Source: Pristiophorus japonicus (taxonomy: Eukaryota). Taken from it: DNA of 64,000 nt. The position numbers and the translations under genes were made by a program. Shown here in pieces: positions 14,607-38,284 of this stretch. A model generated the notes under the pieces. It was not told the DNA's origin. It was given only the letters and a program-made list of their open reading frames with translations, and did no database searches. The stretch's first letter is position 1. The number at the start of each line of letters is the position of its first letter. The stretch spans positions 166,408,001 through 166,472,000 of the forward strand of contig NC_091986.1 in the NCBI RefSeq assembly GCF_044704955.1. The letters run 5' to 3'.

Positions 14607-17267
14607 CAAGAGTGAAACTGTAATAATTACAATATATACTGCAACTATAAGTCTGGTCATTGTACATTCAATTTATTTTTCATTACTTGAGTAAACAAGA
14701 TGTAGTAAAACTGGGTTTTCTTTATCTATCTATAAATAAAATAGAAAAACTAAAAATTTTCAAAATCTGAAATAAAATTAGAAAATGTTGCCCATCTTTC
14801 ATTTTGTTTAGTCATTAATAATGCGTTTGCTTTTCTTCCAGTTTCTAGTTCAAGAGTTAATACCCAAAATGTTAACCTATCTTTTCTCTTTTTCTATGTG
14901 ACTGGGTCACTTTAGTTCAGTGACAAATAAAGTACAGTAATTTAGGACAATTAAGTATGGGAGAGGGGGAAACAAACTGTTGACACAAAGTCTTTGTTCT
15001 GTAAGATGTGACTAGGAATTGCCCAGTTCCACCTAGTCTGGAAAAAGTGCAGTGGTAAGTAACAAAAATTGTTATGGGGGTAAATTACAGGTGAAATTAA
15101 TGTGCCTGAAGACAAAAGCCTTTTGAAAGACAGAATCTTCCTGGAAGAAAGTCAGATTGGTGAGATCCAAATATTGTCACCAAGTGTTCTATGGCTGGCA
15201 CATCTCAACTCGTTCTCATTGAGGAAGCTTGAGAAGTACCATGTTTCATGTGCTTGAAATACTGAAAGGCATGGATAATGTGGATGTAATGTAGAAGCAT
15301 GAAGCTAAAACAGGCTATCTTCAGCAAAACTCAAGATTAGATGGCATTTTACCCACAGAATATACTTATGTTGATTAATTAGTCTAGATAGGAATTGGAA
15401 GGATGCCTGATTATGAAATGATTGAACTCTTCATCATATACTACATGCTGAAGAAGCTGCGATCAGGTTAGGAATCTTGTACAAATTTTCTGCATCAACT
15501 CCCCGCACCCCACCCACGATTTAACCTTACTCGTCAGCTACTCTTAAGGTCACAACTGAGATCACAGTTAATTGCAACTGACTGTACTATCTTCTATGAC
15601 TCCAAGTGGATAATGCCCTGGATTATGGTAGTGGCTGCCCTATTGGCTTGTAAGTAGTGCCAGGTGGGATAAGCAACTAGATATGAATGGCCACGCATGT
15701 TATGGACAATAAGTGAAAGAAAACAAATGCACTCTCAGGGGCCGAAATTGGTCGACATATAGTTGTCCAAAAGGGTGATTTTGGTCAGAAAACAGCTACA
15801 TACCGCTCGGCGGAATATTCATCAATGACATACCGCCAAGTGGTATGCACACCGTCCGCCATGCAGGACCGCCCGCAGACCGTCCAAAAAGTGTGAGTTT
15901 CATCACATACTGCCGACATACCACCAGAGCTGCATAATGTCCGGGAAAAGGTGGTTTTACGCGATGGTAAGTGGCCAGGGATCGGCGGAGTGCACGGAGC
16001 CCCCATTTTGGAAATCGGGACCTGTCAGCTAAAGCAGCAGCTCTGTATCTCTGAGGTGAAAAGTGATTTTAGAGTGCAAAAGTATATTTACTATTACTGA
16101 GTAAATTATTAAGATAGAAAGGCATTTTATTAATATTTTTTGGATCTCAGCCTGTATTGATGACAACCTGTCTAATGAACCAGATGTGAGGAAGTTTATT
16201 AAGCAGAGGTATAAGGCTCATGGAAAAGTTAGCAGAATGATGAGAAGGTTGTGATGTATGTAGCACTCAAATCACTGATGCCACAGTCTGGTGTTGTAGT
16301 AACTGCTGTGACCTTAGTCCTTTATTGTGTAACTCCAGAGTGCCTCTCAGGTGTGGTGGGCAGCCTTTTATACTCTGTCTTGCAGGTACTTTCAGGTCTC
16401 CCACCACAGCGCCCTCTATGGCGCACCATTGTAACCCTACATTTAATGTACCTGGACAATACATAACATCTCACTCCCCCCCCCCAGTTCCAAAAGCCAT
16501 TGCCGTTAACTTCGGCCTTGTGCGTCCTGGTTGATTTGTGAGTGTGAGTCCATGGCCATCCACTTCCCTCTTCTACCCCATGTAGAGATTATGCTTGTGA
16601 TCCGGTGCAAGCATGTGGTATTAGCAGTCCTTACATGAGTGATGAAGTACAGAAACCAGGTATACATAGACAGTACATTTGTATGGTACATATAGATGCA
16701 TTGAAGAATTATAACAAAAGGTTGCAGGTACACTGAACAGTTATTTAATCCCAGCTTCACTGGGTGAGGTACGGTGGTGGCATACAGCCCCTTTTTGCCC
16801 GAGGTAATGGGCTGCGCTGAGACAGGGTATCACAACTAGTGCGTTGCCTCTGTTCTCAGAAAGTAGTTGCCTTTGTGGCTCATCTGCAGCCGCTGAACTT
16901 GCATGAATCACATAAAATCGGAAATCACATTAATCCATTAGTCATGTTAGTCACAGATCCATTAACCCTTTTACTTGTACCTCATGGTATTAACTCTTTC
17001 CATAAATCATATCCATCATTTTAAACACAGTAATCATTTCAGCATCAAAATCTTAACTCTTGTCATAAATCACGTCATCATACAAATCACATTACTCATT
17101 TAGACTCGCTCTTGCCTTACAAAAGTCTCTTTGTGGAGACCACCAACGGTGTAAGGTCCTTTTAAGACTCCCGGGTACATTTCCCTTTTAAGACGCCATC
17201 TTGTTTTTCCCACGAGGCTTCCACTGGGCGTCGCCATTTTAGGTGTTCTGTTTGTCTTTCTCTGCAG

Positions 17268-17694
17268 AACTATGCTGCCACGAGGCTTGCCAGCATCTTG
17301 AGCTCGCTGTGCCCCTTTACATTGAAACAACTCTGCCAACAGTTGCAGCCGATTACAGAAAAGGAGGTTCCAAGCCAAAAGAAACGTAACGTACCTGAAG
17401 AAGTGGTACAGAAAAGGCATAGGTTAAATGCTCATTTTGTTGAGGAGGAGCTTCCTGCAATTACTGAACCAATTGAGGATGTGAGTGGCTTGACTGCACT
17501 GCTGAACGAGTTTGAGAAGAAAAATGTGAATCCCGTTTCTGCTCTACATCTATTTTGCAAGCGCAGAGGATGTCGTCTGCATTTCCAAGAGGTTTCTGGC
17601 ATGACATGTTACTCTCTTCGTGCAGTTGTGGATGGGGTTAAAGAAGGAATAGGTGTCAGCAAAAAAAACGGCTAAGAACAATTGTGCTGAAGCC
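17268..17694 (+). pseudogene. Antisense cargo exon with ADAD1-like dsRNA-binding domain (1-nt insertion in A8 run, C-terminal helix truncated)
   Basis: NPVSALHLFCKRRG...AVVDG...GIGVSKK/TAKNNCAEA; polypyrimidine-CAG acceptor ending 17267 is in phase 0 with the open frame. Confidence 0.75.
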
Positions 17695-17890
17695 GAAACC
17701 ACGAGACGCTTGGGTGTCATTGATCACTCGTACCTCGGAGATCTGCCGGTACCTGGAGAGAACTTCTTCCAGGGCGTCCTTGATCACTCACACCTCAGAG
17801 ATCTGCCCGTAATTGGAGAGCACTTCTTCCAGGGCCTGCTCGTCTGTGTCGAGATTTAGACCTCCGATGAACAGCTTTCCTTCTCCGGAC
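17689..17890 (-). pseudogene. CIRBP/RBM3-like RRM fragment with a 60-bp internal duplication
   Basis: [35 protein letters not shown] / ALEEVLSRYRQISEVRVINDTQASRGFGF: RNP2 LFIGGL and partial RNP1 RGFGF. Confidence 0.85.
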
Positions 17891-18177
17891 CCTTTTGCGA
17901 GGTTGGTTTGCTGGGTGTTTTCCCTGCTGAACTCTAGCCTGTTGCTGCCTACCAGTTCACTCTCGACTCTCTCTTGGGATCCACCACACTTCGACCGCAC
18001 CCAGGAGCCACAACACACCGGCCCCCACACCGCCACATCCTCCGGAGCCGGCCTCTGCCCGCGGGCCGACGGTGCCTGCTGGAGCAGCCCGTCGAAGCCC
18101 TTCTCTCTCCTCCAGCTCGGTCGGCACTGCTCTTTGGGAACCCGGGGGACAGCGGTCTGTGGAGGAATGAAGTCTTC

Positions 18178-19409
18178 CTAGCTCCCATGGACCTTCCCCA
18201 TCCACCTCCTGCCAAGTAGCGTCGGCCCATCACCTGCAATGATCCACAAAGGTAAACCGTGTGTCTCACCCCGTGAGATACCTGCACATCCGCTCTGCCA
18301 AGAACAGGTATCCGTTCCTTGGTGTAGGTGCGCAGCTTTGCCGTGTCCGGGACCAGCTTGGGTCGTGCAGCTGGGTTGATCCACAGTTTATCAAAAGTTT
18401 CCTGACTCATCAGCGACTGACCCGATCCAGTGTCCACTTCCATACTCACTGGGCCACCATTAATCTTGACTTCCAAAACCACTGGGGTCGAATCGTTGGT
18501 ACAAGTATACAGTCCAAACGCCTCATCTTCTTCTACCTGCTCCTCGCTGGATGGTGGATCATCTACCATCTCCTCAGCCACATGGTGAGTTAGGTTTCTT
18601 TTGCACATACGCTGAAGGTGGCCTTTCGTGTGGCAGGTATTGCACATATACTCTGTAAACCTGCACCAGTGAGCCCCATGGCTTCCTCCGCAGCACCAGC
18701 ATGGTGCTACTCGATTAGCCCCCCTCGGCGGACTCTGAGTTCCAGGACCCCGAGTTCCGTGCTCTCTGCCCTGGGCAGAGCCACATTCTGCAGTTTTGTC
18801 CGTGACGGGCACTATCCTGTGGACAGTGCCTGCCGGGTTCGAGACTGTGTGGGTCATCTGCTTGGTGCTGCAAATCAAGGTCATAAATACCCTGCTGATG
18901 TTGATGGCTTGCTGCAGACTGACTGCAGGTTCAGTGGCTAGCAGCTTGTGAAGGAGACCCTCATGGCCAATCCCCATAATAAAAACGTCTCGCAACGCCT
19001 CGTCAAGGTGCGTGCCAAAATCACATGGCACCGCGAGTCTCCTGATGTCTGCAGCATATTTGGTGACATCCTGGTCCTCAGGTCTGCAGTGGTGGTAGAA
19101 TTTGTGCCTGGCCGTGAGGATGCTCTCCTTCGGTTTCAGTTGGTCACGAATGAGTTCAATCAGCTCCTCATATGACTTGTCCTTGGTGCTCGCAGGTGCC
19201 AGCAAATCCCTGACGAGACAGTAAACCTCATCACCACAACTGGACAGCAATATCGCCTTACGCTTCTCTCTCAGTGCGTCCGTGTCCCCCGTCAGGTCAT
19301 TTGCTATAAAGTAGTACTCGAGCCTTTCCGTAAAGGCCTCCCAATCATTATCCACTGTAAAATCCTTTAGCGAGCCCAGAGTAGCCATGGTTGCATGAAG
19401 CTCGCCCAT
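18178..19409 (-). pseudogene. Gypsy gag + aspartic protease (one frameshift near 18270)
   Basis: DWEAFTERLEYYF, two CCHC knuckles (CWCCGGSHGAHWC, CNTCHTKGHLQRMC), VDTGS, and LLGRRW in the shifted frame. Confidence 0.92.
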
Positions 19410-19649
19410 GTCCTCGTCGCCAATGTAATGTATGTAGCACTAAGATCACTGACTCCACACAGTCTGGTGTTGTAGTAACTGCTGTGACCTTAGTCCTTTA
19501 TTGTGTAACTCCAGAGTGCCTCTCAGGTGTGGTGGGCAGCCTTTTATACTCTGTCTTGCAGGTACTTTCAGGTCTCCCACCACAACGCCCTCTGTGGCGC
19601 ACCATTGTAACCATACATTTAATGTACCTGGACAATACATAACAAAGGT

Positions 19650-20610
19650 CTTACCGCAAAGGATCTTGAGGGAGAAGTGTTCATACTTGGACCTGATCGA
19701 TCGACAGTGTGTCCAAAGGCTGCGCTTCCGAAAAGAGATCATCACACAGATTTGCCAGCTCATTAAGGCAGACCTGCAGCCCGATAGCACCAATATTACT
19801 GCACTCTGTTGAGATGAAGGTGACTGGCACTTTCCTTTTATGCATGTGGGTCTTTTCAATCATCAGCTGGGGACATATGCGCTATTTCGCAGTACGCTAC
19901 TCGTCGGTGCATTCGACAGGTAACCGAAGCACTGTATGACGATGGATGGAATTTATAAACTTCCCAATGACGAGGGAGGCTCAGAGTGACAGGGCTTTGG
20001 GATTTGCACGCATTGCTGGCTTCCCTAAGGTGCAGGGTGCTATTGACTGTACCCATATTGCCCTGCAAGCACCATTACAGGAGGCGAGCACCATTACAGG
20101 AGGCGGAGGTGTACCGAAATCGTAAGGGATTTCACTCCCTCAACATGCAGCTGGTATGCGACCATACACAGCGCATAATGGCAGTGAATGTCAACTTTCC
20201 AGGGAGCATCCATGATGCGCATATCTTACAGGAGAGTACTGTGTCTGACCTGTTGAAGTCTGCGCCACAAGGTAAATTCTGGATGCTGGCCGACAAAGGG
20301 TATAGCCTCGCTACCTGGCTTTTGCCCCCCCTAAGGAACCCTCACACAGAACCCGAGCAACGATACAATAAAAGCTATATAGCCACACATAACATAATTG
20401 AAGACAATTGGAGTGCTGAAGCAGTGCTTTCGGTGCTTGGACCACTTGGGAGGCAGGCTGCAATACTACCCTGAGCAGTTGCTAAGTTCACAATGATATG
20501 CTGCATGTTGCATAATTTAGCAATCATGTGGGGACAGGAATTGCCACAGGGAACTGAAGGACCATCTGAGGAGAGTGCAGGAGATGGAGGAGGAAGAAGA
20601 CAATGAGGGG
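19650..20610 (+). pseudogene. Harbinger DDE transposase, frameshifted; 5' part lies before 16250
   Basis: QRLRFRKEII, YRNRKGFHSLNMQLVCD, PGSIHDAHIL, LADKGY. Confidence 0.88.
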
Positions 20611-21220: not shown

Positions 21221-21842
21221 AGCACCACCCCCAACACCACAGCAGAGGGCACGTGGAGTGTGTGCCACTGCAAAATTCTTAAGTCAGCAGTTCATTACTG
21301 AACGCTTTGCTTGAATGTGGAGCTGCTGCATTTTGGGACCCTCATGACTGTTACCCCAAAAGTTTGACACTGTACAAGAGTGGTTAAATTCAATTCAAAC
21401 ATTTATCTAAAAATTTTAAAAAATACAATTTCCAAACTTTGTAAAAATTAACAGCTGTTTTTACAACTTTAATAAAAAATGTAACAAAACTTACAAAACT
21501 TTAACAAACATTTTATAACTTTAATAACAAACCCTTTACTTTCCCCACCCACGCCCTCTGTCCCTTCCGCGGCCGCGTGATACACCACCCTTGGAACTAT
21601 TCTCCCCTTTCTTATTGCCGTCCTTCCCTTTCACGATGCCCGTGGGCATGGACATCCCCAGGTATATACCAAGCCAGCGTCCAGCACCGCACCCCAAGTG
21701 CCATTGCTGTCGTTTGGGGGGGGGGGGGGCGGGAGAGTGAGACATTGCAGGCGCAATAACTGGTGCCTCAGGAGAAGCTCGTGAGGATGGTGAGGCTTCA
21801 GAGCTGGGAGATGATGTCAGCTCTCCATCCTCAGATGCCGTC

Positions 21843-24800
21843 TGTTGTGTATCTGTAAAGCATGCACTCCCATGTTCCGCCACCAGGGAGCTCATCCCCT
21901 GAAGTCCCAAGAGATCCCAGCATCTTCTGGCTCCGGTGAAACCCACAGATAAGTCGTATGAGGAGCTGTGTACACTGGTTCGGGAGCATCTTAATCCGAG
22001 GGAGAGCGTGCTGATGGCGATGTATCGGTTCTACACGTGCCAGCAATCTGAAGATCAGGAAATGGCGAGCTACGTCGCCGAGCTAAGGCGACTTGCAGGA
22101 CAATGTGAGTTTGATGGCTACCTGGAGCAGATGCTCAGAGACTTTTTTGTACTGGGCATTGGCCACGAGACCATCCTACGAAAACTTTTGACTGTGGAGA
22201 CACCGACCCTCAGTAAGGCCATTGCGATAACACAGGTGAATATGTCCACCAGTGATAACATCAAACAAATCTCTCAGCATTACAAGTGCTAGCAATGTTC
22301 ATAAATTAACTGGAATTGTGTTTGTGAGCCGAAATGTACAGGGCAGAAACCACGAGTCTGCAACTGCCAGCAGGCCTCAGGTGACCCAGATGACTGAGTC
22401 CGCAACAAAGGATGAATGCAAGGCAGTTCACACCTTGTTGGCGTTGTGGAGGCTTCCATTCAGCCGATTCATGCTGCTTCAAAGGGTATGTTTGCAAGAG
22501 CTGTGAAACAATGGGGCACCTCCAACGAGCTTGCAAACGAGCTGCAAGATCTGCAAAACCTGCTAACCACCACGTGGCAGAGGAAGATCGGTCCATGGTG
22601 GATCAAAGCAATTTCGAGCCTCAGAGAGGAGGCAGATGCTGAAGTACATGGGGTGCACACTTTTTCGACGAAATGTCCACCTATAATGCTAAATGTAAAA
22701 TTGAATGGCTTATCTGTACCCATGGAACTGGACACTGGCGCTAGCCAATCCATCACGAGTAAAAAGATGTTTGAGAGACTGTGGTGCAACAAGGCATTCA
22801 GACCAGCCCTGAGCCCCATCCACACGAAACTGAGAACGTACACCAAAGAGCTTATCACGGTCCTGGGCAGCGCCATGGTCAAGGTCACCTACACGTGCAC
22901 GTGCACGAACTGCCACTCTGGATTGTCCTGGGAGATGGCCCCACACTGCTTGGAAGGAGCTGGCTGGGCAAAATCCACTGGAACTGGGATGACATCCGAG
23001 CTCTATCACATGTCGATGAGGCCTCATGTACCCAGGTTCTTCACAAATTTCCTTCCGTTTTTGAGCCAGGCATTGGAAACTTTTCCGGGGCGAAGGTGCG
23101 GATCCAATTGGTCCCAGAGGCATGACCCATTCACCTCAAAGCGCGAGCGGTACCTCACATGATAAGGGAGAGAGTGGAAATCGAGCTGGACAGGCTGCAA
23201 CGCGAGGGCATCATCTCCCCAGTGGAATTCAGCCAGTGGGCCAGCCCGATTGTTCCAGTACTCAAAAGTGATGGCACGGTCAGGATTTGCGGCGATTATA
23301 AAGTAGCTATTAATCGTTTATCGCTACAGGACCAATACCTGCTACCTAAGGCAGACGACCTATTTGCGACGCTTGCAGGAGGCAAGACATTCACCAAGCT
23401 CGACCTGACTTCGGCCTACATGACGCAGGAGCTGGAGGAGTCTTCGAAGGGCCTCATCTGCATCAACACGCACAAGGGACTGTTCATCTACAACAGATGC
23501 CCATTTGGAATTCGGTCGGTTGCAGCGCTCTTCCAGAGAAACATGGAGAACCTACTCAAGTCGATACCACACACAGTGGTCTTTCTGGACGACATATTGG
23601 TCACGGGTCGGGCCCTACACGTGTAATTGCGCAAAGGTGAGAACTGGGTATGGGGAAAAAAAACAAGTAATTGCTTTTGAGAAAGCTAGAAATATTTTAT
23701 GCTCCAACAAGTTGCTTGTATTGAATAAGCCGTGTAAAAGACATGTGCTAGCATGTGACGCGTCGCCGTACGGAGTCGGGTGTGTATTACAAGCTAACAT
23801 TGCGGGGAAGTTGCAACCTGTCGCCTATGCTTCCAGGAGCTTGTCTAAGGCCGAGAGGGCCTACAGCATGATTGAGAAAGAGGCATTAGCGTGTGTGTTC
23901 GGTGTAAATAAAATGCATCAGTGCCTGTTTGGCCTCAAATTTGAGCTGGAAACCGATCACAAGCCCCTCACATCCCTGTTCGCTGAAAACAAGGGGATAA
24001 ATACTAATGCCTCAGCCCGCATACAAAGGTGGGCACTCGCGCTATCAGCTTTTAGCTATAATCATCCTCCACAGGCACCGAGAACTGTGCGGATGCTCTC
24101 AGTCGGCCACCATTGCCCACCACGGGGGTGGAAATGGCGCAGCCTGCAAACTTGTTGATGGTGGCACAGCCCGCAGACTTGTTGATGATCATGGAAGCGT
24201 TTGAAAATGATAAATCACCTGTCACGGCCCATCAGATTAGGACTTTGACCAGCCAAAATCCTCTGCTGTCCCTAATAAAAAAACTGTTCACTGCATGGGA
24301 ACTGGGCCAGCATCCCTGTTGAAATGCAAGAGCTAATCAAGCCATTCCAGCGGTGAAAGGACGAGCTGTCCATTCAGTCAGACTGCCTGTTGTGGGGTAA
24401 TCACGTAGTGCTACCAAAAAAGGGCAGGGAGACGTTCATCTCGGATCTCCACAGCACACACCCGGGTATAGTAATGATGAAAGCGATAGCCAGATCCCAC
24501 GTGTGGTGGCCCGGTATCGACTCTGACTTAGAGTCCTGTGTACGGCAATGCAGCATATGTGCTCAGTTGAGCAACGCGCCCAGAGAGGCACCACTAAGTT
24601 TGTGGTCCTGGCCCTCCAGACCATGGTCGAGGATCCATGTCGACTATGCGGGCCTGTTTCTCGGTAAAATGTTCCTGGTGGTGGTGGATGCTTTTTCAAA
24701 ATGGATTGAACGTGAAATAATGTCGGGAAGCACCGCCACCGCCACCATTGAAAGCCTGGGGGCCATGTTTGCCACCCACGGCCTGCCTGACATACTGATC

Positions 24801-25816
24801 AGTGACAACGGGCCATGTTTCACCAGTGCCGAATTTAAAGAATTCATGACCTGCAATGGGATCAAACATGTCACCTCGGCCCCGTTTAAACCAGCCTCCA
24901 ATGGGCAGGCAGAGCGGGCAGTACAAACCATCAAACAGAGCCTTAAACGAGTCACAGAAGGCTCACTCCAAACCCGCCTATCCCGAGTACTGCTCAGCTA
25001 CCGCACAATACCCCACTCGCTCACAGGGGTGCCCCCGGCTGAGCTACTCATGAAAAGGACACTTAAAACCAGACTCTCGCTGGTTCACCCCAACCTGTAT
25101 GATCAGGTAGAGAGCAGGCGGCAGCAACAAAATGTAAATGATGGTCGCGCCACTGTGTCACGGGAAATTGATCTGAATGATCCTGTGTATGTGCTAAACT
25201 ATGGACATGGTCCCAAGTGGATCGCGGGCACGGTGATAGCTAAAGAAGGGAATAAGGTGTTTGTAGTCAAACTAGACAATGGAAAAATTTGCAGAAAGCG
25301 CCTGAACCAAACGAGGCTGCGGTTTAGACTGCCCTGAACAACCCACAGCAGACACCACCTTTTTCGAGCCCACACCACACACCCAAAGAATCAACGACAC
25401 CACGTCGGACCAGGAAATCAAACCCATCCCGCCCAACAGCCCAGCAAGGCCAGGCTCACCTAGCAGCCCTGCAGGGCCAACAACATGCCAGTCCAGTGAG
25501 GGCACAGCCAACAGACCAGAACCGACATTTGTACCGAGGCGGTCCACTAGGGAAAGAAAGGCTCTCAAATGCCTCACCTTGTAAATAGTTTTCACTTTGA
25601 CTTTGCAAGGGGAGTGCTGTTGTGTATCATTCCCATGTTCCGCCACCAGGGAGCTCATCCCCTGAAGTCCCAAGGGATCCCAGCATCCCTTGGGAGCACT
25701 GTATATAAGTCGGCCCCTAAGGCCTGTTCCTCACTCTGGAGTGTCTTATTAAAGACTGCGGTCACTGTTACTTTAACCTCCCTGTGTGCAGCCTCATCTG
25801 TGTTAGGAACACAATA
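21843..25816 (+). mobile_element. Gypsy LTR retrotransposon (gag-PR-RT-RH-IN), degenerate
   Basis: TSD CCGTC; 5' LTR truncated near 21924 and joined to mid-gag; 3' LTR 25618-25816 after a PPT; LDTGA, RICGDYK, FLDD, CDAS/IEKEALA/TDHKPL, integrase HHCC + HVDYAG/SDNG/NGQAERAV. Confidence 0.93.
24390..25337 (+). CDS. Gypsy integrase domain (open 315-aa stretch of broken pol)
   Basis: HPGIVMMKAIARSHVWWPG, IHVDYAG, ISDNGPCF, SNGQAERAV. Confidence 0.88.
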   Translation: MWGNHVVLPKKGRETFISDLHSTHPGIVMMKAIARSHVWWPGIDSDLESCVRQCSICAQLSNAPREAPLSLWSWPSRPWSRIHVDYAGLFLGKMFLVVVDAFSKWIEREIMSGSTATATIESLGAMFATHGLPDILISDNGPCFTSAEFKEFMTCNGIKHVTSAPFKPASNGQAERAVQTIKQSLKRVTEGSLQTRLSRVLLSYRTIPHSLTGVPPAELLMKRTLKTRLSLVHPNLYDQVESRRQQQNVNDGRATVSREIDLNDPVYVLNYGHGPKWIAGTVIAKEGNKVFVVKLDNGKICRKRLNQTRLRFRLP

Positions 25817-27959
25817 CCGTCGACCTGACTACTATGGCACATGGGGGTTCCATGCCATGTTCCGATCCTGTCGATTGCTGCATGGCAACTCTTGACCTAT
25901 GCCGACGCTGGCCTGTGACAGACGCACCATGTCCTGGTACAGCAATCGACCTTTCCTCCACCAACCTCCGTCACTGCGGCAAAGGCGCTGCAACACTAGG
26001 GGTGCCTTGCTGCGCATGGCTTGGTCCGGCAGATTCAGAGGACCCATGGGGGAATCCCATGAATATAGACTCGGTGGTGGTGGAGGATGTTCCAGCTGTC
26101 CCACATGGAGCTGGTGCTTCCTCCTCCGTCTCCAACACTAGCTCCACCTCCACTGGCTGCTGGAGAGGGCTGGGTGACGCCAGAGGTGGAGGCAGTGGAT
26201 CTGTCGTCGGTGTCACTGTGGTCTGAATCATTGGCGTCTGGAAGTACAAAATATTTCAAAAAGCTTGGCAGCAGGGAAGGGGTGAGGGTTACATGAGCAC
26301 ATAGTACAGTGACTTATCGCAGTTTTACTTAAATATCCACCACTGCTGCAGTACTGCATTACATATCGCATACAGAATACATATATGAATTGCGTTACAT
26401 GCCCCCAACATTCCAGTACATCACATGAGGCTAACATTACAGTGCAATAAACTTACATTACATTACATCAGGCCAACATTACAGTGACATGATAGGACCG
26501 CAACACAGACTGCATTTTATTTAACTTACCATCTTGTGTGAGTGGGTGAGCTTCAATGCCACTGGTGACACGGTTGCTATCCCCAACCAGGGACAGGGCA
26601 CGGATCTTGGTATCTGTAAGTGGCTCCTGGATTGTGGGGCTGCCCCCCGGTGTGACGCTGAGAGCTGCTATTGCAGATGTCTTCCTCTGCAGAACGGGAA
26701 GTAAATTAAAAATATAAATAAATCTTCAATCCATTTAACATGGCACAGACAGACACACATACACACACACAAAGCACTGCGTTGATCCTCGTCTTTGCCT
26801 GAAAAGCATGAATACATCGCCGTAACCTTAAGATAAATATCACCCACTAAACCTACATTTACATGGTATATAACGCATGGCGGGGAGGGCGGGGCATAAA
26901 TAAAATCATTACTTACTCTTGCAACCCTCACCAGGTCGTTCCACCTCTTACGGCACCTTTCCCCAGTGTGTACCATCGTACTTTTCGTGGACACAGCCTC
27001 CCCGATCTCATCCCAAATTCGGTTGTACTCCTTTGGGAGGGGCTTTCCACTACCACCCTTGGTGAGGTCAGAGTACCTCTCTGTGATGTGCTCCAGAAGG
27101 GCAGGTAACTCCGTTTCATCGAAGGCGAGCGCCCTCAACCTCCCCTCCTTCTCGATATTCCTGTGCTTGGCGGTTTTCTTTAACATTTGCATCATTTTTT
27201 TCTGGATATTAATTTTCCCTTCTTAAATATCTGTTCTTGTGTTGAAATTGAATAATTATTAGTTGCTACCAATTTTTTACCAATGTGTTATTTATTTTTA
27301 AACTCACTGGCCTTCGACTACCTTGCTGTTCCTTCTCACTCTCTCTCTCTCTCCTCAACTCACTGCACATGCATGGGTGACCCCTGACCCCCGAAATCAT
27401 GGGTAAAACATTTGTGAAAAAAAATCGGGGAAAAAAAATTTGCACATGCGCAGTTCCGTGCCACACCGCCCATCAAACAAAGAGTTGATCTTGGTCGACT
27501 ACTAAGATGCATACCATCCGATGCAGACCACTGACACACCGCCGAAAATGTTTTCACCAATTTAACCTTCTTCAGTCTCGGCAGTATGAAACGACATATT
27601 ACCGAGAAATGGGCGGATCATCGGTATCAACCAATTTCGGCCCCTCTGTATTTTCAGCAGGAGAAAATGTTCCAGACTTGGGGGCCCCTTTCCTGCAAAG
27701 TCACATATAATGAGACTAGCTACATCAGACCTCCCAGCTTCTTTCTTCGGACACTGAGAGGATTTGAAAGTTTATTTTACATCAGGAAGTGTTATCTTTG
27801 CAATTCTTCCTCCTCTCACATAGAGTTGGCAATCGGTTCTGTATCCCCTAAGGATTGGTCTTGCTATGCTTTTTGGGAAATGACTGTTATCTTTTTTCTT
27901 CCCAGTGAACCTCAGAAAGCCTAATGTTATTTGTCACCCCATTATAGGAAGGAAATGAA

Positions 27960-32314: not shown

Positions 32315-34315
32315 TGTTGTGTATGCATGCCTGTTTACTGTGTGATGTCTGTAACACTGTTATGCAACACTGAATGTACCCTTACACTGTACACACCTTG
32401 CCTGTACACCACAGGGTGCTGCTGCTGGAGACCTAAGGGTTACCTGCACACTGCAGGTAACCCAGTATAAAAAGGAATACACAGCTTGTTGTCCTCACTC
32501 AGGAGCTGCAAATAAAGGACTACAGGTCCACACAGTTTAAGTATCATACCTTGCCTCGTGGAGTCATTACTAAAGGTGCCTACATACGCTACAATTGGCG
32601 ACGGGAATACGAGGTCATGAACTACACGCTCAACATGTCTAACCTCAGCAACTTTCAACAATTTACAGAGGGGAAAGATTGGGATGCTTTTGTGGAAAGA
32701 TTGGAACACTTTTTTTATAGCCAACGACCTGGACAGGGACACACCGGCTACACTACCGAACAAACGCAGGGCCATCCTGCTTAGCAGTTGTGGGCCCACC
32801 ATCTACGGTCTCATCAGGGACTTACTAGCCCCGGAGAAGACAACCATCAAGAGCTATGAGCAACTTGTAACAATCATACAGGAACAACTGAAATCGAAAG
32901 AAAGCGTCCTCACAGCCAGGCACCGGTTCTACACTTACCGGCGACCTGAGGGCCAAGAAATTGCCAAGTATGCTGCACACTTAAGAAGACTAGCTGCACC
33001 GTGTGATTTTGGCGACCACCTTAATGAAGCACTAAGGGACATATTTGTCATCGGAATCGGCCACGAAGGCCTCCTACACAAATTGCTCTCGGCTGACATC
33101 ATGGTCACCCTACAGAAAGCAAATCAAGTGAGCCAGGCCTACATGGTTTCGGCCAGCAACTCCAGGCGAATACTGACCCAGGACTCTAAACCGGCGAGCG
33201 CAGTGCACCGCATGGATACGTCTAAAGGCAGAAATGCTGCCCTGAGTCCCGCAACCCTGAGTCCGCCACAAGGGGCAAACCGGATGGCCCCGTGCTGGCA
33301 CTGTGGAGAAAACCACAGGGCCCACCAGTGCCGCTACAAAGACTATACATACAAAGGCTGCGAAGAGAAAGGGCACCTTCACAGAATGTGCAGAGAAAGC
33401 TTTACTCACCGCTGATCACCGGGGCTCTGACACAGATGAAGGTGAAGTTGCTCAACCCCTGGAAGAAGAGTATGGAACTCATATCTGCTCCACCAAAAGT
33501 TCTCCATGGGCGATGAAAGCAGACGTCGACGGGGTCCCAGTTTCTATGGAGAGCGACACAGGGGCGAGCCAATCTGTGATGAGCCAAGCGACCTTTGAAG
33601 AACTTTGGATGAATCCTGCCAATCGACCACAACGGCAGCCTGTCCAAGCGAAGCTGCTCCCAGGCCTCCGGGCTCCAGCAATCAACCTCGAACATGGATC
33701 CACCACAGCATCCGGAGGTTCCACAGTCCAGCTCGACTGGCCACAGCATCCTGGCGAAATCCCTAAGACCGAGGATCCAAACTCCACTTTCCGGGCCGGG
33801 GCAGCACTCCAAGAGGTGAACATCGATGAACGAAATGGATTCCCAACATCCAGGATCGAACCACAGCCTACCTGCAGCAAGACCAGAAAATGGCTGCAGC
33901 ACCACAAGCAGCAGAACTTGTAATCAAAATGGCCGCCACCATGCCAACAGTAAGCATGGAGGAGCATCACATGACACCGAGCGGCCAATCGGATTTGAAG
34001 GCTCCCTTAAAGGAGACCGGTAACCAAAGAAATTTAAAGGAGAAGTTTCAACTATTTGAGTACACGGACTTTAAAGCTAAAGATGCGATTAAAGGGTGCA
34101 AGTATGAAAATGTATGCAATGTAACAATGAATTGTGATGCTGGTTTAACTAATGTGACTAATGATATGAATGCAGGTGTCAGTAAGGTTAAGAACAAGTT
34201 TATTATGCTTAACAGTAATGATAGAGATTGTGAAATGCCTAATGTAACCATGTCAGTTGAAACCAGGACACCTAGTAGTGATGCAAATGCTAGAATGTAT
34301 AATGCAGGCTTGACT

Positions 34316-37155
34316 ATAGAAACATAGACATAGAAAATAGGTGCAGGAGCAGGCCATTCAGCCCTTCTAGCCTGCACCGCCATTCAATGAGTTCATGGCT
34401 GAACATGAAACTTCAGTACCCCCTTCCTGCTTTCTCGCCATAACCCTTGATCCCCCTAGTAGTAAGGACTATATCTAACTCCTTTTTGAATATATTTAGT
34501 GAATTGGCCTCAACAACTTTCTGTGGTCGAGAATTCCACAGGTTCACCACTCTCTGGGTGAAGAAGTTTCTCCTCATCTCGGTCCTAAATGGCTTACCCC
34601 TTATCCTCAGACTGTGACCCCTGGTTCTGGACTTCCCCAACATTGGGAACATTCTTCCTGCATCTAACCTGTCTAAACCCGTCAGAATTTTAAACGTTTC
34701 CATGAGGTCCCCTCTCATTCTTCTGAACTCCAGTGAATACAAGCCCAGTTGATCCAGTCTTTCTTGATAGGTCAGTCCCGCCATCCCGGGAATCAGTCTG
34801 GTGAATCTTCGCTGCACTCCCTCAATAGCAAGAATGTCCTTCCTCAAGTTAGGAGACCAAAACTGTACACAATACTCCAGGTGTGGCCTCACCAAGGCCC
34901 TGTACAACTGTAGCAACACCTCCCTGCCCCTGTACTCAAATCCCCTCGCTATGAAGGCCAACATGCCATTTGCTTTCTTAACCGCCTGCTGTACCTGCAT
35001 GCTAACCTTCAATGACTGATGTACCATGACACCCAGGTCTCGTTGCACCTTCCCTTTTCCTAATCTGTCACCATTCAGATAATAGTCTGTCTCTCTGTTT
35101 TTACCACCAAAGTGGATAACCTCACATTTATCCACATTATATTTCATCTGCCATGCATTTGCCCACTCACCTAACCTATCCAAGTCACTCTGCAGCCTAA
35201 TAGCATCCTCCTCGCAGCTCATACTGCCACCCAACTTAGTGTCATCCGCAAATTTGGAGATACTGCATTTAATCCCCTCGTCTAAATCATTAATGTACAA
35301 TGTAAACAGCTGGGGCCCCAGCACAGAACCTTGCGGCACCCCACTAGTCACTGCCTGCCATTCTGAAAAGTACCCGTTTACTCCTACTCTTTGCTTCCTG
35401 TCTGACAACCAGTTCTCAATCCACGTCAGCACACTACCCCCAATCCCATGTGCTTTAACTTTGCACATTAATCTCTTGTGTGGGACCTTGTCGAAAGCCT
35501 TCTGAAAGTCCAAATATACCACATCAACTGGTTCTCCTTTGTCCACTTTACTGGAAACATCCTCAAAAAATTCCAGAAGATTTGTCAAGCATGATTTCCC
35601 TTTCACAAATCCATGCTGACTTGGACCTATCATGTCACCATTTTCCAGATGCACTGCTATGACATCCTTAATAATTGATTCCATCATTTTACCCACTACT
35701 GAGGTCAGGCTGACCGGTCTGTAATTCCCTGTTTTCTCTCTCCATCCTTTTTTAAAAAGTGGGGTTACATTGGCTACCCTCCACTCCATAGGAACTGATC
35801 CAGAGTCAATGGAATGTTGGAAAATGACTGTCAATGCATCCGCTATTTCCAAGGCCACCTCCTTAAGTACTCTGGGATGCAGTCCATCAGGCCCTGGGGA
35901 TTTATCGGCCTTCAATCCCATCAATTTCCCCAACACAATTTCCCGACTAATAAAGATTTCCCTCAGTTCCCCCTCCTTACTAGACCCTCTGACCCCTTTT
36001 ATATCCGGAAGGTTGTTTGTATCCTCTTTAGTGAATACCGAACCAAAGTACTTGTTCAATTGGTCTGCCATTTCTTTATTCCCCGTTATGACTTCCCCTG
36101 ATTCTGACTGCAGGGGACCTACGTTTGTCTTTACTAACCTTTTTCTCTTTACATACCTATAGAAACTTTTGCAATCCGCCTTAATGTTCCCTGCAAGCTT
36201 CTTCTCGTACTCCATTTTCCCTGCCCTAATCAAACCCTTTGTCCTCCTCTGTTGAGTTCTAAATTTCTCCCAGTCCCCAGGTTCACTGCTATTTCTGGCC
36301 AATTTGTATGCCACTTCCTTGGCTTTAATACTATCCCTGATTTCCCTAGATAGCCACAGTTGAGCCACCTTCCCTTTTTTATTTTTACGCCAGACAGGAA
36401 TGTACAATTGTTGTAATTCATCCATGCGGTCTCTAAATGTCTGCCATTGCCCATCCACAGTCAACCCCCTAAGTATCATTCGCCAATCTATCCTAGCCAA
36501 TTCACGCCTCATACCTTCAAAGTTACCCTTCTTTAAGTTCTGGACCATGGTCTCTGAATTTACTGTTTCATTCTCCATCCTAATGCAGAATTCCACCATA
36601 TTATGGTCACTCTTCCCCAAGGGGCCTCGCACAATGAGATTGCTAATTAATCCTCTCTCATTACACAACACTCAGTCTAAGATGGCCTCCCCCCTAGTTG
36701 GTTCCTCAACATATTGGTCTAGAAAACCATCCCTTCTGCACTCCAGGAAATCCTCCTCCACCGTATTGCTTCCAGTTTGGCTAGCCCAATCTATGTGCAT
36801 ATTAAAGTCACCCATTATAACTGCTACACCTTTATTGCATGCACCCCTAATTTCCTATTTGATGCCCTCCCCAACATCCCTATTACTGTTTGGAGGTCTG
36901 TACACAACTCCTACTAACGTTTTTTGCCCTTTGGTGTTCTGCAGCTCTACCCATATAGATTCCACATTATCCAAGCTAATGTCTTTCCTAACTATTGCAT
37001 TAATCTCCTCTTTAACCAGCAATGCTACCCCACCTCCTTTTCCTTTTATTCTATCCTTCCTGAATGTTGAATACCCCTGAATGTTGAGTTCCCAGCCCTG
37101 ATCATCCTGGAGCCACGTCTCCGTAATCCCAATCACATCATATTTGTTAACATCT
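34316..37155 (-). mobile_element. Young CR1 LINE, near-complete ORF2
   Basis: One frame from 37136 to 34413 with only two stops (36855-36857, 36672-36674); APE (ITETW, YRPPN, GDFN, SDH) and RT (FADDTK); (TTCTATGT)-type tail. Confidence 0.96.
34413..36671 (-). CDS. CR1 ORF2 reverse transcriptase (752-aa open part)
   Basis: NYRPVSLTS, QHGF, YLDFQKAFDKVPH, GVPQGSVLGP, KFADDTKL. Confidence 0.9.
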   Translation of the reverse strand: MLCNERGLISNLIVRGPLGKSDHNMVEFCIRMENETVNSETMVQNLKKGNFEGMRRELARIDWRMILRGLTVDGQWQTFRDRMDELQQLYIPVWRKNKKGKVAQLWLSREIRDSIKAKEVAYKLARNSSEPGDWEKFRTQQRRTKGLIRAGKMEYEKKLAGNIKADCKSFYRYVKRKRLVKTNVGPLQSESGEVITGNKEMADQLNKYFGSVFTKEDTNNLPDIKGVRGSSKEGELREIFISREIVLGKLMGLKADKSPGPDGLHPRVLKEVALEIADALTVIFQHSIDSGSVPMEWRVANVTPLFKKGWREKTGNYRPVSLTSVVGKMMESIIKDVIAVHLENGDMIGPSQHGFVKGKSCLTNLLEFFEDVSSKVDKGEPVDVVYLDFQKAFDKVPHKRLMCKVKAHGIGGSVLTWIENWLSDRKQRVGVNGYFSEWQAVTSGVPQGSVLGPQLFTLYINDLDEGIKCSISKFADDTKLGGSMSCEEDAIRLQSDLDRLGEWANAWQMKYNVDKCEVIHFGGKNRETDYYLNGDRLGKGKVQRDLGVMVHQSLKVSMQVQQAVKKANGMLAFIARGFEYRGREVLLQLYRALVRPHLEYCVQFWSPNLRKDILAIEGVQRRFTRLIPGMAGLTYQERLDQLGLYSLEFRRMRGDLMETFKILTGLDRLDAGRMFPMLGKSRTRGHSLRIRGKPFRTEMRRNFFTQRVVNLWNSRPQKVVEANSLNIFKKELDIVLTTRGIKGYGEKAGRGY

Positions 37156-38284
37156 ACGTGTGATCAGAGCCAAGGTGTCAATGTATACCGGTAGGACATT
37201 GCCAAAGGACATTGGGTCCTACAGGGATCATGCTGATGCCAATGGAATCCCCCTGTGGGAGACCCCCAGATCCAGCAGGCTACCTGACCACGTAGCCTGG
37301 ACCTTTGGAACGAATGTGATGCCCCTTGCAGGACACACACACTGGCAGTGGGAGCAGACCCACTACAAGGACAGTGGTCAATGGGCAGCCCAGCCACCAC
37401 CAATGGCAACCTGCACCAGACCAGCCCTACAGTCCCTGGCCACCAGGGCCAACACCAGGAGCATGAGGCCAATACCCTCCAGCTTCCCTGGCAAACCCTG
37501 GGATGACCTGACCCTCATCCCAATTGGTGGACAAGGAGCCCACCCAGTCTTGTGGCCCTGCCCACCACCCCACAACATCAGTGGACAAGGAGGCCACCCA
37601 GTCTTGTGGCCCTGCCCACAACTACCCACATCACAGTGTATACACATCACCCACTGCTGCCGTGGCTACCCCCCCCGAGGGATCCCACAACAGTAACACC
37701 CACATGGTCTGTGTGTGAGGGAGGGGAAACGTATGAGGTCAGCCTCAAGCACAGGGGTCACACCTGGCAACCATACAACCCTCACCACAACCTCCCATAG
37801 CCCACCACTGATCACCTCCCCTGGGCATGACAATAAGGATATGAAAAATGCTTAGGGGAGAAGTGTTGTTGTGTATGCATGCCTGTTTACTGTGTGATGT
37901 CTGTAACACTGTTGTGCAACACTGAATGTACCCTTACACTGTACATGCCTTGCCTGTACACCAGAGGGTGCTGCTGCTGGAGACCTAAGGGTTACCTTCA
38001 CACTGCAGGTAACCCAGTATAAAAAGGTTTGCAGTTGATGGGACCTTTCACTTGCCTCTTGGAGCGCTAAAGTGGAAATTCCCATCAGCTGCAAACCTTT
38101 TTGAGCCTGCAATAATTTTGCACTCCCTGAAGTTATCGCCCTGCCCTGAATGGGTCGGTACACAATTTCTTGACCATGGAATTTCATTTAGATAATTCAC
38201 CTGTCTGTCATCAATTTTTATCCTGAATTTGAAAATCTGTTTTTGTAATCTTTTCTCATTGTGAAACTTCAATTTTTCCCATAT

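What the first reader, a model, noticed from the sequence alone, without database searches (positions are those of the whole stretch)
16250..19644. Non-autonomous Gypsy element whose pol is replaced by two captured RNA-binding domains
Seen: every cis signal for retrotransposition (two LTRs differing by roughly 8 substitutions and one indel by eye, PBS, PPT, 5-bp TSD), gag with two zinc knuckles and protease, but no RT/RH/IN. In their place are a sense CIRBP-like RRM and an antisense ADAD1-like dsRBD, tail to tail. The paired LTRs and TSD indicate the cargo-bearing form integrated as a unit. Known: ADAD1 is germline-restricted, CIRBP is abundant in testis, and viral dsRBD proteins such as vaccinia E3 suppress dsRNA sensing. 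Inference: a capsid-encoding satellite element carrying germline RNA-binding modules, possibly to counter silencing or aid RNA packaging. I know of no description of this architecture. This copy is degraded, so function is unproven.
Basis: partly seen in the sequence, partly recalled or inferred. Interest (0 to 1): 0.85.

Follow-up and report, generated by a model that had tools for sequence, protein, structure and literature searches.

The report
Shark retrotransposon carrying a circular RNA
A shark jumping-gene family that lacks its own copying enzymes has picked up scraps of host RNA many times, and this copy holds a back-to-front, exactly once-around copy of three exons of the germline gene ADAD2, most likely taken from a circular RNA; the scraps decay like passengers, not working RNA-binding proteins.

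Summary
The element (two LTRs, tRNA-Ser PBS, PPT, 5-bp TSD, gag-pro, no pol) belongs to a family with at least 796 copies. Gag-pro was under purifying selection. The cargo is not two domains. The RRM is a 5' half of a CIRBP-like mRNA with its ATG lost. The 'ADAD1' piece comes from the ADAD2 orthologue and is circularly permuted: end of exon C, exon D, exon B, start of exon C. Exon D's donor is joined exactly to exon B's acceptor, a back-splice junction (58 exact genomic matches). It is one turn of a 396-nt circle, antisense to the element, entered at a 9-nt microhomology. Cargo-free and CIRBP-only relatives give the order of capture. Sister lineages hold other cargo in the same slot (7SL and spliced DLG antisense; a second CIRBP and NDUFA8 sense). 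Cargo substitutions are neutral, the dsRBD is frameshifted or deleted in most copies, and about half of sampled copies lack both pieces. Precedent: LTR-mediated retroposition and mouse circRFWD2 pseudogenes. New here: captured intermediates and junctions that point to a mechanism for circRNA retroposition.

The parts
16245..16249 (.). left target-site duplication AAGGT (right copy 19645-19649); the target is a decayed Harbinger-type transposase frame
   Evidence: DDE_Tnp_4 E 1.7e-20 at 19971-20474
16250..16468 (-). 3' LTR (219 nt, TG...CA)
16469..16491 (-). polypurine tract
   Evidence: sequence
16492..17312 (-). 3' non-coding region shared by all sub-lineages; no pol remnant detected; 17308-17312 is the second copy of the 5-nt duplication GCACA
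17313..17316 (-). 4 nt (AGGG) at the exit junction, found neither in the host exon nor at the pre-insertion site
17317..17364 (+). ADAD2 exon C, 3' part (host C28:21192999-21193046)
17365..17430 (+). ADAD2 exon D, whole (host C28:21221615-21221680); its end at 17430 joins the exon B start at 17431 = back-splice junction
17431..17593 (+). ADAD2 exon B (host C28:21177705-21177878); this copy has a 15-nt deletion at the B/C joint
17594..17691 (+). ADAD2 exon C, 5' part (to host 21192997); 17683-17691 is the 9-nt entry microhomology; frameshifting A-run near 17664-17671
17688..17968 (-). 5' piece of a CIRBP-like mRNA (host L116, C7:219.50 Mb): 5' UTR from 31 nt after a TATA-like box to RGFGF; ATG lost; 60-bp tandem duplication at 17712-17831, seen in few copies
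17969..18170 (-). GC-rich linker inherited from the cargo-free relatives; origin unknown
18171..19388 (-). gag (two Cys/His knuckles) and aspartic protease; this copy is broken near 18271 (frameshift) and 18180 (stop)
19411..19422 (-). primer-binding site for tRNA-Ser(GCT)
19424..19644 (-). 5' LTR (221 nt)

Best explanation
This is one decayed copy of a large pol-less Gypsy family whose internal slot holds a 5' scrap of a CIRBP-like mRNA and one antisense turn of ADAD2 exons B-C-D joined by a back-splice junction, likely copied from a circular RNA by a borrowed reverse transcriptase and likely carried along as a neutral passenger. Shown: element anatomy, copy number, donor genes, exon order, junction sequences, precursor forms, selection on gag-pro and its absence on the cargo. 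Inferred step 1: the element makes its own Gag-protease particle and borrows RT and integrase from autonomous relatives with the same PBS. Inferred step 2: during minus-strand synthesis RT switched onto a co-packaged CIRBP-like mRNA, ran to near its 5' end and switched back (sense capture). Inferred step 3: a DNA 3' end of element-sense polarity ending in TTCAGCACA, most simply the growing plus strand, annealed to the sense circle. RT copied once round, was stopped because RNase H had destroyed the template behind it, added a few bases and returned to the same spot, duplicating GCACA (antisense capture, one turn). Step 4: later masters overwrote or trimmed the slot and took up further RNAs.
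For: Permuted exon order with exact GT-AG boundaries. The junction is present in 39 of 40 copies picked by this cargo, 5 of which share flanks and are not independent; 58 exact 20-mer matches genome-wide, control 0. Each exon occurs once in 180 kb of the host locus, so there is no tandem exon duplication. The circle is 174+156+66 = 396 nt, opened between host 21192997 and 21192999. Cargo-free copies end ...CAGCAGCACAGCGAG and host CIRBP reads GGCTTCATCAC, which together predict the CIRBP-only junction seen in L159, L175, L096, L098, L103 and L110. TTCAGCACA in that junction is the only 9-mer shared with the antisense circle. The gag tree puts L159 and L175 between cargo-free and circle-bearing copies. 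Same slot, other cargo: 7SL antisense in 13 of 70 copies; DLG-type PDZ antisense with two introns removed, 38 copies among 40 scored hits; NDUFA8 sense in 1 copy; a second CIRBP paralogue in 30 of 70. Gag-pro inherited variants N/S 88:79 (p 5e-8 against neutral), singletons 1076:379 (neutral); cargo inherited 25:9. Template-switch capture by LTR elements is documented (PMC5131818).
Against: Exon E also begins CTCA, so GCTCA is shared at the D|E and A|B joints, and an RT jump on linear mRNA could give the same junction. No host-type back-splice contig was seen in the one run laid (X1): exon D appeared only in two low-depth element-type contigs, and the host mRNA there skips exon D. The polarity argument cannot tell a plus-strand switch in the particle from priming at a chromosomal nick. 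The helper element was not identified. The tree has no outgroup and weak inner support, and 4 of 6 CIRBP-only copies fall among circle-bearing ones, so they may be later losses. Cargo versus gag differs at p 0.036 with all lineages pooled but p 0.25 within the circle-bearing lineage alone. The CIRBP piece stays in frame with the protease more often than chance suggests (33 of 50; 30 of 32 in the second CIRBP lineage).
Confidence: 0.72

Rival explanations
1. The circle (and 7SL, DLG) was written into a chromosomal master copy by a LINE reverse transcriptase or by RNA-templated break repair, then amplified by ordinary LTR retrotransposition.
For: Short duplications flank the inserts (GCACA for ADAD2, about 11 nt for the H1-like piece, about 8-12 nt for 7SL) and there are 4 extra bases at the exit, as expected for nick-primed insertion (established knowledge). 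Both orientations occur. LINE frames are present in the window.
Against: No poly(A) or LINE tail at the ADAD2, 7SL or DLG junctions; these pieces are internal and begin at microhomology. At least six identified captures hit one 600-nt slot of one family, and some replace element sequence instead of duplicating it. 7SL is a known passenger of retroviral particles (title of a reference listed in PMC12789967).
Confidence: 0.2
2. No circle existed: RT entered linear ADAD2 mRNA in exon C, ran to the start of exon B, jumped via GCTCA to the D|E joint and left where it had entered.
For: A 5-nt match exists at both splice joints. No host circle was seen in run X1.
Against: 156 microhomology pairs of 5 nt or more were available between the two sides examined (436 x 314 nt), and the one used lies exactly on a donor and an acceptor. 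The route needs one extra jump. The host mRNA in X1 and protein model P0001 both skip exon D, whereas the cargo includes it.
Confidence: 0.1
3. The antisense cargo is kept because element transcripts, or piRNAs made from them, knock down ADAD2 or other germline RNAs to the element's benefit.
For: Firm antisense captures include ADAD2 and 7SL. Mouse ADAD2 acts on pachytene piRNA biogenesis (PMC10040813, passages). A 17-nt ADAD2-like motif persists in 23 of 30 copies of the derived lineage.
Against: In mouse, losing ADAD2 raises ping-pong piRNAs against LINE and IAP and leaves them silenced, which would harm an element. Circle-bearing copies are 4 of 70, and derived lineages trimmed or eroded the piece. 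No unusual fold (z 0.88).
Confidence: 0.07
4. One reading: RRM and dsRBD proteins are made and counter silencing or aid packaging.
For: The RRM piece is in frame with gag-pro in 33 of 50 copies, and the main shared indels upstream of its end are multiples of three, so a Gag-protease-tail fusion was probably translated.
Against: Half RRM; ATG absent in 57 of 57 copies; RNP1 deleted in derived lineages; 4 of 5 CIRBP-only copies are out of frame. The dsRBD is permuted, antisense, frameshifted or deleted. N/S is neutral. Pfam dsrm fails.
Confidence: 0.04

Closest known systems
Mouse circRFWD2-derived pseudogenes (Dong et al. 2016, PMC4897178; whole main text read, supplements searched)
   Same: Tens of genomic copies with a back-splice exon junction and no poly(A), associated with LTR-element sequence (MMERVK10C-int).
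   Different: There the mechanism was called mysterious and, in what I read, neither orientation nor junctions were resolved. Here the carrier is a Gypsy-type element in a cartilaginous fish, the insert is one full turn, antisense, with a 9-nt entry match, and the empty precursor survives.
LTR-mediated retroposition (Tan et al. 2016, PMC5131818; abstract, passages, section 6), including multi-gene chimeras and maize Bs1
   Same: Partial spliced RNAs captured at microsimilarities inside LTR elements, several donor genes, further rounds as a non-autonomous element.
   Different: Their model is a switch onto mRNA during cDNA synthesis from the element RNA, with cargo replacing ORF sequence; 'circular' does not occur in the main text. 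Here half of the firmly identified captures are antisense, and some duplicate the target instead of replacing it.
Mag-clade Ty3/Gypsy elements (PMC2577118, passages)
   Same: Gag with two Cys/His arrays; pol-bearing elements with a TGGCGACGAG PBS occur in this genome (nested in L102).
   Different: No RT here, so the clade cannot be set by the usual RT tree.

Membership tests
Non-autonomous Ty3/Gypsy LTR retrotransposon | paired TG...CA LTRs, PBS, PPT, 5-bp TSD | tested here: met
Non-autonomous Ty3/Gypsy LTR retrotransposon | no RT/RH/IN, yet many independent insertions | tested here: met
   distinct TSDs
Non-autonomous Ty3/Gypsy LTR retrotransposon | identified autonomous helper sharing LTR ends | tested here: inconclusive
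   pol-bearing relatives share the PBS, but their gags are only 34-46% identical and no LTR match was found among the loci held
Mag clade | two CCHC arrays in gag | tested here: met
   CWCCGGSHGAHWC and CNTCHTKGHLQRMC; clade feature from PMC2577118
Mag clade | RT/IN phylogeny | not testable with these tools
   the element has no pol
circRNA-derived retrocopy | non-colinear exon-exon junction at exact splice sites | tested here: met
   the exon B acceptor is also used by a spliced host contig in X1
circRNA-derived retrocopy | sequence confined to the circularised exons, no poly(A) | tested here: met
   only exons B, C and D match the element
circRNA-derived retrocopy | parent circle detected as RNA | tested here: inconclusive
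   one unlabelled run; junction contigs were element-type only
LTR-mediated retrocopy (template switch) | microsimilarity at fusion points, introns removed | tested here: met
   GAGAG-type and TTCA/CAC matches for CIRBP, TTCAGCACA for ADAD2; introns absent for ADAD2 and DLG
Functional captured RNA-binding gene (E3L-like suppressor) | intact domain, expressible frame, purifying selection | tested here: not met

The most novel reading that the evidence does not exclude
LTR-retrotransposon RT can jump onto co-packaged sense RNAs, circles included, during plus-strand synthesis. This is a general route for circRNA retroposition with a readable signature (antisense, exactly one turn, duplicated microhomology). 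This shark family is a fossil log of the RNAs inside germline retrotransposon particles and has seeded dozens of LTR-driven antisense templates against ADAD2, DLG and 7SL.
Probability: 0.35. Interest if true: 0.72.

Novelty: new variant of a known kind. Interest (0 to 1): 0.52.

Why it matters
How circular RNAs get back into genomes was left open when circRNA-derived pseudogenes were described (PMC4897178). This family preserves the empty site, the one-turn insert and its later erosion, so it gives a specific, testable model. It is also fossil evidence that an ADAD2 circle likely existed in the shark germline, and it shows frequent antisense capture, which the standard minus-strand model does not predict. 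It is a caution too: domain-like cargo in LTR elements can be in frame and in many copies and still be neutral.

Tried and rejected
Functional dsRBD/RRM: rejected. ADAD1 as donor: rejected by the tree of 24 proteins, last 400 residues each, picked by hand from the 120 listed. Tandem exon duplication in the host: not seen in 180 kb. Cargo replacing pol: rejected. Autonomous helper: not found among loci held; no genome-wide search was made for it. RNA runs: no RNA holder listed; one unlabelled run was laid, and it says nothing on expression of the element. The Rfam scan missed the 58-nt 7SL piece, which was then shown against host 7SL genes. A first CIRBP pattern search was badly formed and found nothing. 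H1-like identity of the L128/L166 cargo is weak (PDB E 1.1; motif recalled). The L177, L152 and L158 cargos were not identified. RNA fold of the antisense piece is unremarkable. Introns flanking the circle share only short inverted matches, 42-62 nt. No earlier scan findings. Literature: ten searches listed no paper on this family or on antisense one-turn circle capture. The library lacks most subscription papers, I saw only listings for most hits, and the supplements of PMC5131818 were not opened and may list antisense cases. Other shark genomes could not be searched.
Full report
Observation. The window holds a 3,395-bp LTR element on the minus strand (19644-16250). Its LTRs differ by 7 substitutions and 2 gapped nt, and a perfect AAGGT duplication flanks it. 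The PBS matches a genomic tRNA-Ser(GCT) over 12 nt, and a PPT abuts the 3' LTR. Gag with two Cys/His knuckles runs into a protease; no pol lies between the LTRs. RRM_1 hits the sense cargo, but dsrm does not hit the antisense cargo. This copy is decayed: a frameshift near 18271, a stop at 18180 and a 60-bp duplication in the RRM piece.

Family. The cargo query gave 1,805 first-look candidates, of which 40 were scored. An exact protease 23-mer occurs 796 times, control 0. Two-LTR copies of all sub-lineages have median LTR divergence near 0.05 (79 copies), so they spread in roughly one period. I took the first 70 of the 796 matches, all on contig C1. Of these, 34 have neither CIRBP nor ADAD2 sequence, 30 carry a second CIRBP-like paralogue, 4 carry the window's cargo and 2 carry only its CIRBP part. 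None showed pol in the sequence read after the protease; a tblastn pol test was run only on the 59 copies. The window's form is thus a minority lineage of a family that was already pol-less.

The RRM piece. It comes from an intronless CIRBP-like gene (L116, identical to P0007). It starts 31 nt after a TATA-like box and ends at RGFGF, half-way through the domain. The ATG is absent in 57 of 57 copies scored.

The dsRBD piece. The donor gene on C28 matches database protein P0001, labelled ADAD1-like from Pristiophorus japonicus. It groups with ADAD2 at 100/100. In the host the order is exon B, C, D. In the element it is the end of C, all of D, B, then the start of C. Exon D's donor (AAACG|gt) is joined to exon B's acceptor (ag|CTCATT). 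This junction is present in 39 of 40 cargo-selected copies (five of them share flanks) and has 58 exact genomic matches. The three exons total 396 nt, each is single-copy in 180 kb of the host locus, and the element's two ends meet one base apart in exon C. It is therefore one turn of a B-C-D circle, antisense to the element RNA. Contigs of run X1 join exon A to B and C to E, which confirms these boundaries and shows exon D skipped in that linear mRNA. Exon D occurred only in two low-depth element-type contigs, so the host circle itself was not seen. Exon E also starts CTCA, so a jump on linear mRNA is possible. It would have had to pick the one splice-site pair among 156 comparable matches.

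Order of events. Cargo-free copies and the host CIRBP sequence together predict the junction GGCTTCAGCACAGCGAG, and six copies have it (L159, L175, L096, L098, L103, L110). Its TTCAGCACA equals the ADAD2 antisense strand at the opening point and is the only shared antisense 9-mer. The insert enters there and leaves through AGGG plus a second GCACA. A gag tree of 104 copies places L159 and L175 between the cargo-free and circle-bearing groups. The other four CIRBP-only copies sit among or beside circle-bearing ones and may be later losses; support is weak and there is no outgroup. The lineage with the second CIRBP paralogue keeps an eroding stub of ADAD2 exon C, so it came later.

Other captures in the same slot. 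Antisense: 58 nt of 7SL RNA, about 88-95% identical to host genes, in 13 of 70 copies; a DLG-type PDZ spanning three host exons with introns removed, 38 copies among 40 scored hits; a probable histone H1 piece (L128, L166; weakly identified). Sense: the two CIRBP-like RNAs and NDUFA8 (L180, E 3e-16). One unidentified cargo has at least 40 copies.

Selection. Non-CpG gag-pro variants seen in four or more copies give N/S 88:79 against 2.64 expected (p 5e-8). Lineage-fixed differences give 20:16 and 25:23, and singletons 1076:379 are neutral. So Gag-protease was made and needed by the element's own RNA. In 54 circle-type copies the same class of variant gives 18:6 for ADAD2 and 7:3 for the RRM. 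Against gag this is p 0.036 pooled and p 0.25 within this lineage alone. The A-run in exon C has the host's length in 1 of 27 copies scored and is 8 or 9 nt in 22. A 157-nt deletion removes most of the dsRBD in 14 of 46 aligned copies. Of 20 new copies chosen by the 3' region, only 1 had the whole ADAD2 piece. One result goes the other way. The CIRBP piece is in frame with the protease in 33 of 50 copies, and in 30 of 32 in the later lineage over four length classes. The frame is random by the G-rich tail, and 4 of 5 CIRBP-only copies are out of frame. This may mean selection for an open tail after the protease, or a bias of microhomology indels towards multiples of three. It does not protect RRM residues.

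Mechanism. The element supplies Gag and protease and borrows pol. Pol-bearing relatives with the same PBS exist, but no close helper was found. Sense captures fit the known minus-strand switch (PMC5131818). A spliced RNA inserted antisense must have been copied from a DNA end of element-sense polarity, or through a cDNA intermediate. The growing plus strand is the simplest such end. RNase H removing the template behind RT would limit the copy to one turn and return RT to the same microhomology. These steps are inferred. Nick-primed insertion into a chromosomal master by a LINE RT or repair polymerase fits the same junctions and remains the main rival.

Comparison. It works like LTR-mediated retroposition and meets the sequence tests for a circRNA-derived retrocopy, except that the parent circle is unobserved. 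Mouse circRFWD2 has at least 33 such copies beside MMERVK10C sequence, with the mechanism left open (PMC4897178). My ten paper searches listed nothing on this family or on antisense one-turn capture. An anti-silencing role is unlikely: besides the neutral decay, ADAD2 loss in mouse increases ping-pong piRNAs against transposons (PMC10040813, passages).

Verdict. New variant of a known kind; interest 0.52.

Noticed in passing
family slot; window 17688-18170, L119, L123-L127, L133, L167: Most shared indels between the protease and the middle of the CIRBP piece keep the gag-pro frame (length classes 324/336 and 90/111/150/168), even as the RRM is destroyed. A basic RRPSWRR(K/E)K stretch is kept in most copies of all lineages.
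   Followed up: partly
L126:1330-2460, L145, L129: The G-rich CIRBP tail has expanded into tandem repeats of 45 and 33 nt in some copies.
   Followed up: no
G000:C7:219.41-219.77 Mb (L116-L118, L120, L121): Cluster of at least five CIRBP-like genes with intronless coding sequence; two paralogue types were captured by the element.
   Followed up: partly
G000:C14:178.09-178.21 Mb (L201): 7SL RNA genes in a tandem array with about 4-kb spacing; this type is the best match for the captured 7SL piece.
   Followed up: no
L081:2542-2760 (G000:C28:21220542-21220760): A solo LTR 85% identical to this family's lies about 850 bp upstream of ADAD2 exon D, the exon skipped in the host mRNA of run X1.
   Followed up: no
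L177:2185-2600; L152, L122, L127; L158: Further captured pieces of unknown origin; the L177 type has at least 40 copies.
   Followed up: partly
window about 21800-25850 (+) and 32315-38030 (+): A decayed gag-pol Gypsy with RT, RH and IN, and a second gag-pro element without detectable pol that is interrupted by a 2.2-kb LINE RT frame at 34416-36671.
   Followed up: partly
window about 15750-20500 and 26668-27222: The element sits inside a decayed Harbinger-type transposase; a Myb/SANT-like frame (recalled resemblance, not scanned) lies at 26668-27222.
   Followed up: no
L044, L045, L049, L050, L052 (C8:144-147 Mb, C1231): Five copies share identical flanks, so one insertion was multiplied by segmental duplication.
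   Followed up: yes
host ADAD2 exons B-D: The 396-nt circle is a multiple of three with no stop in the coding frame, so it could in principle be translated round and round.
   Followed up: no
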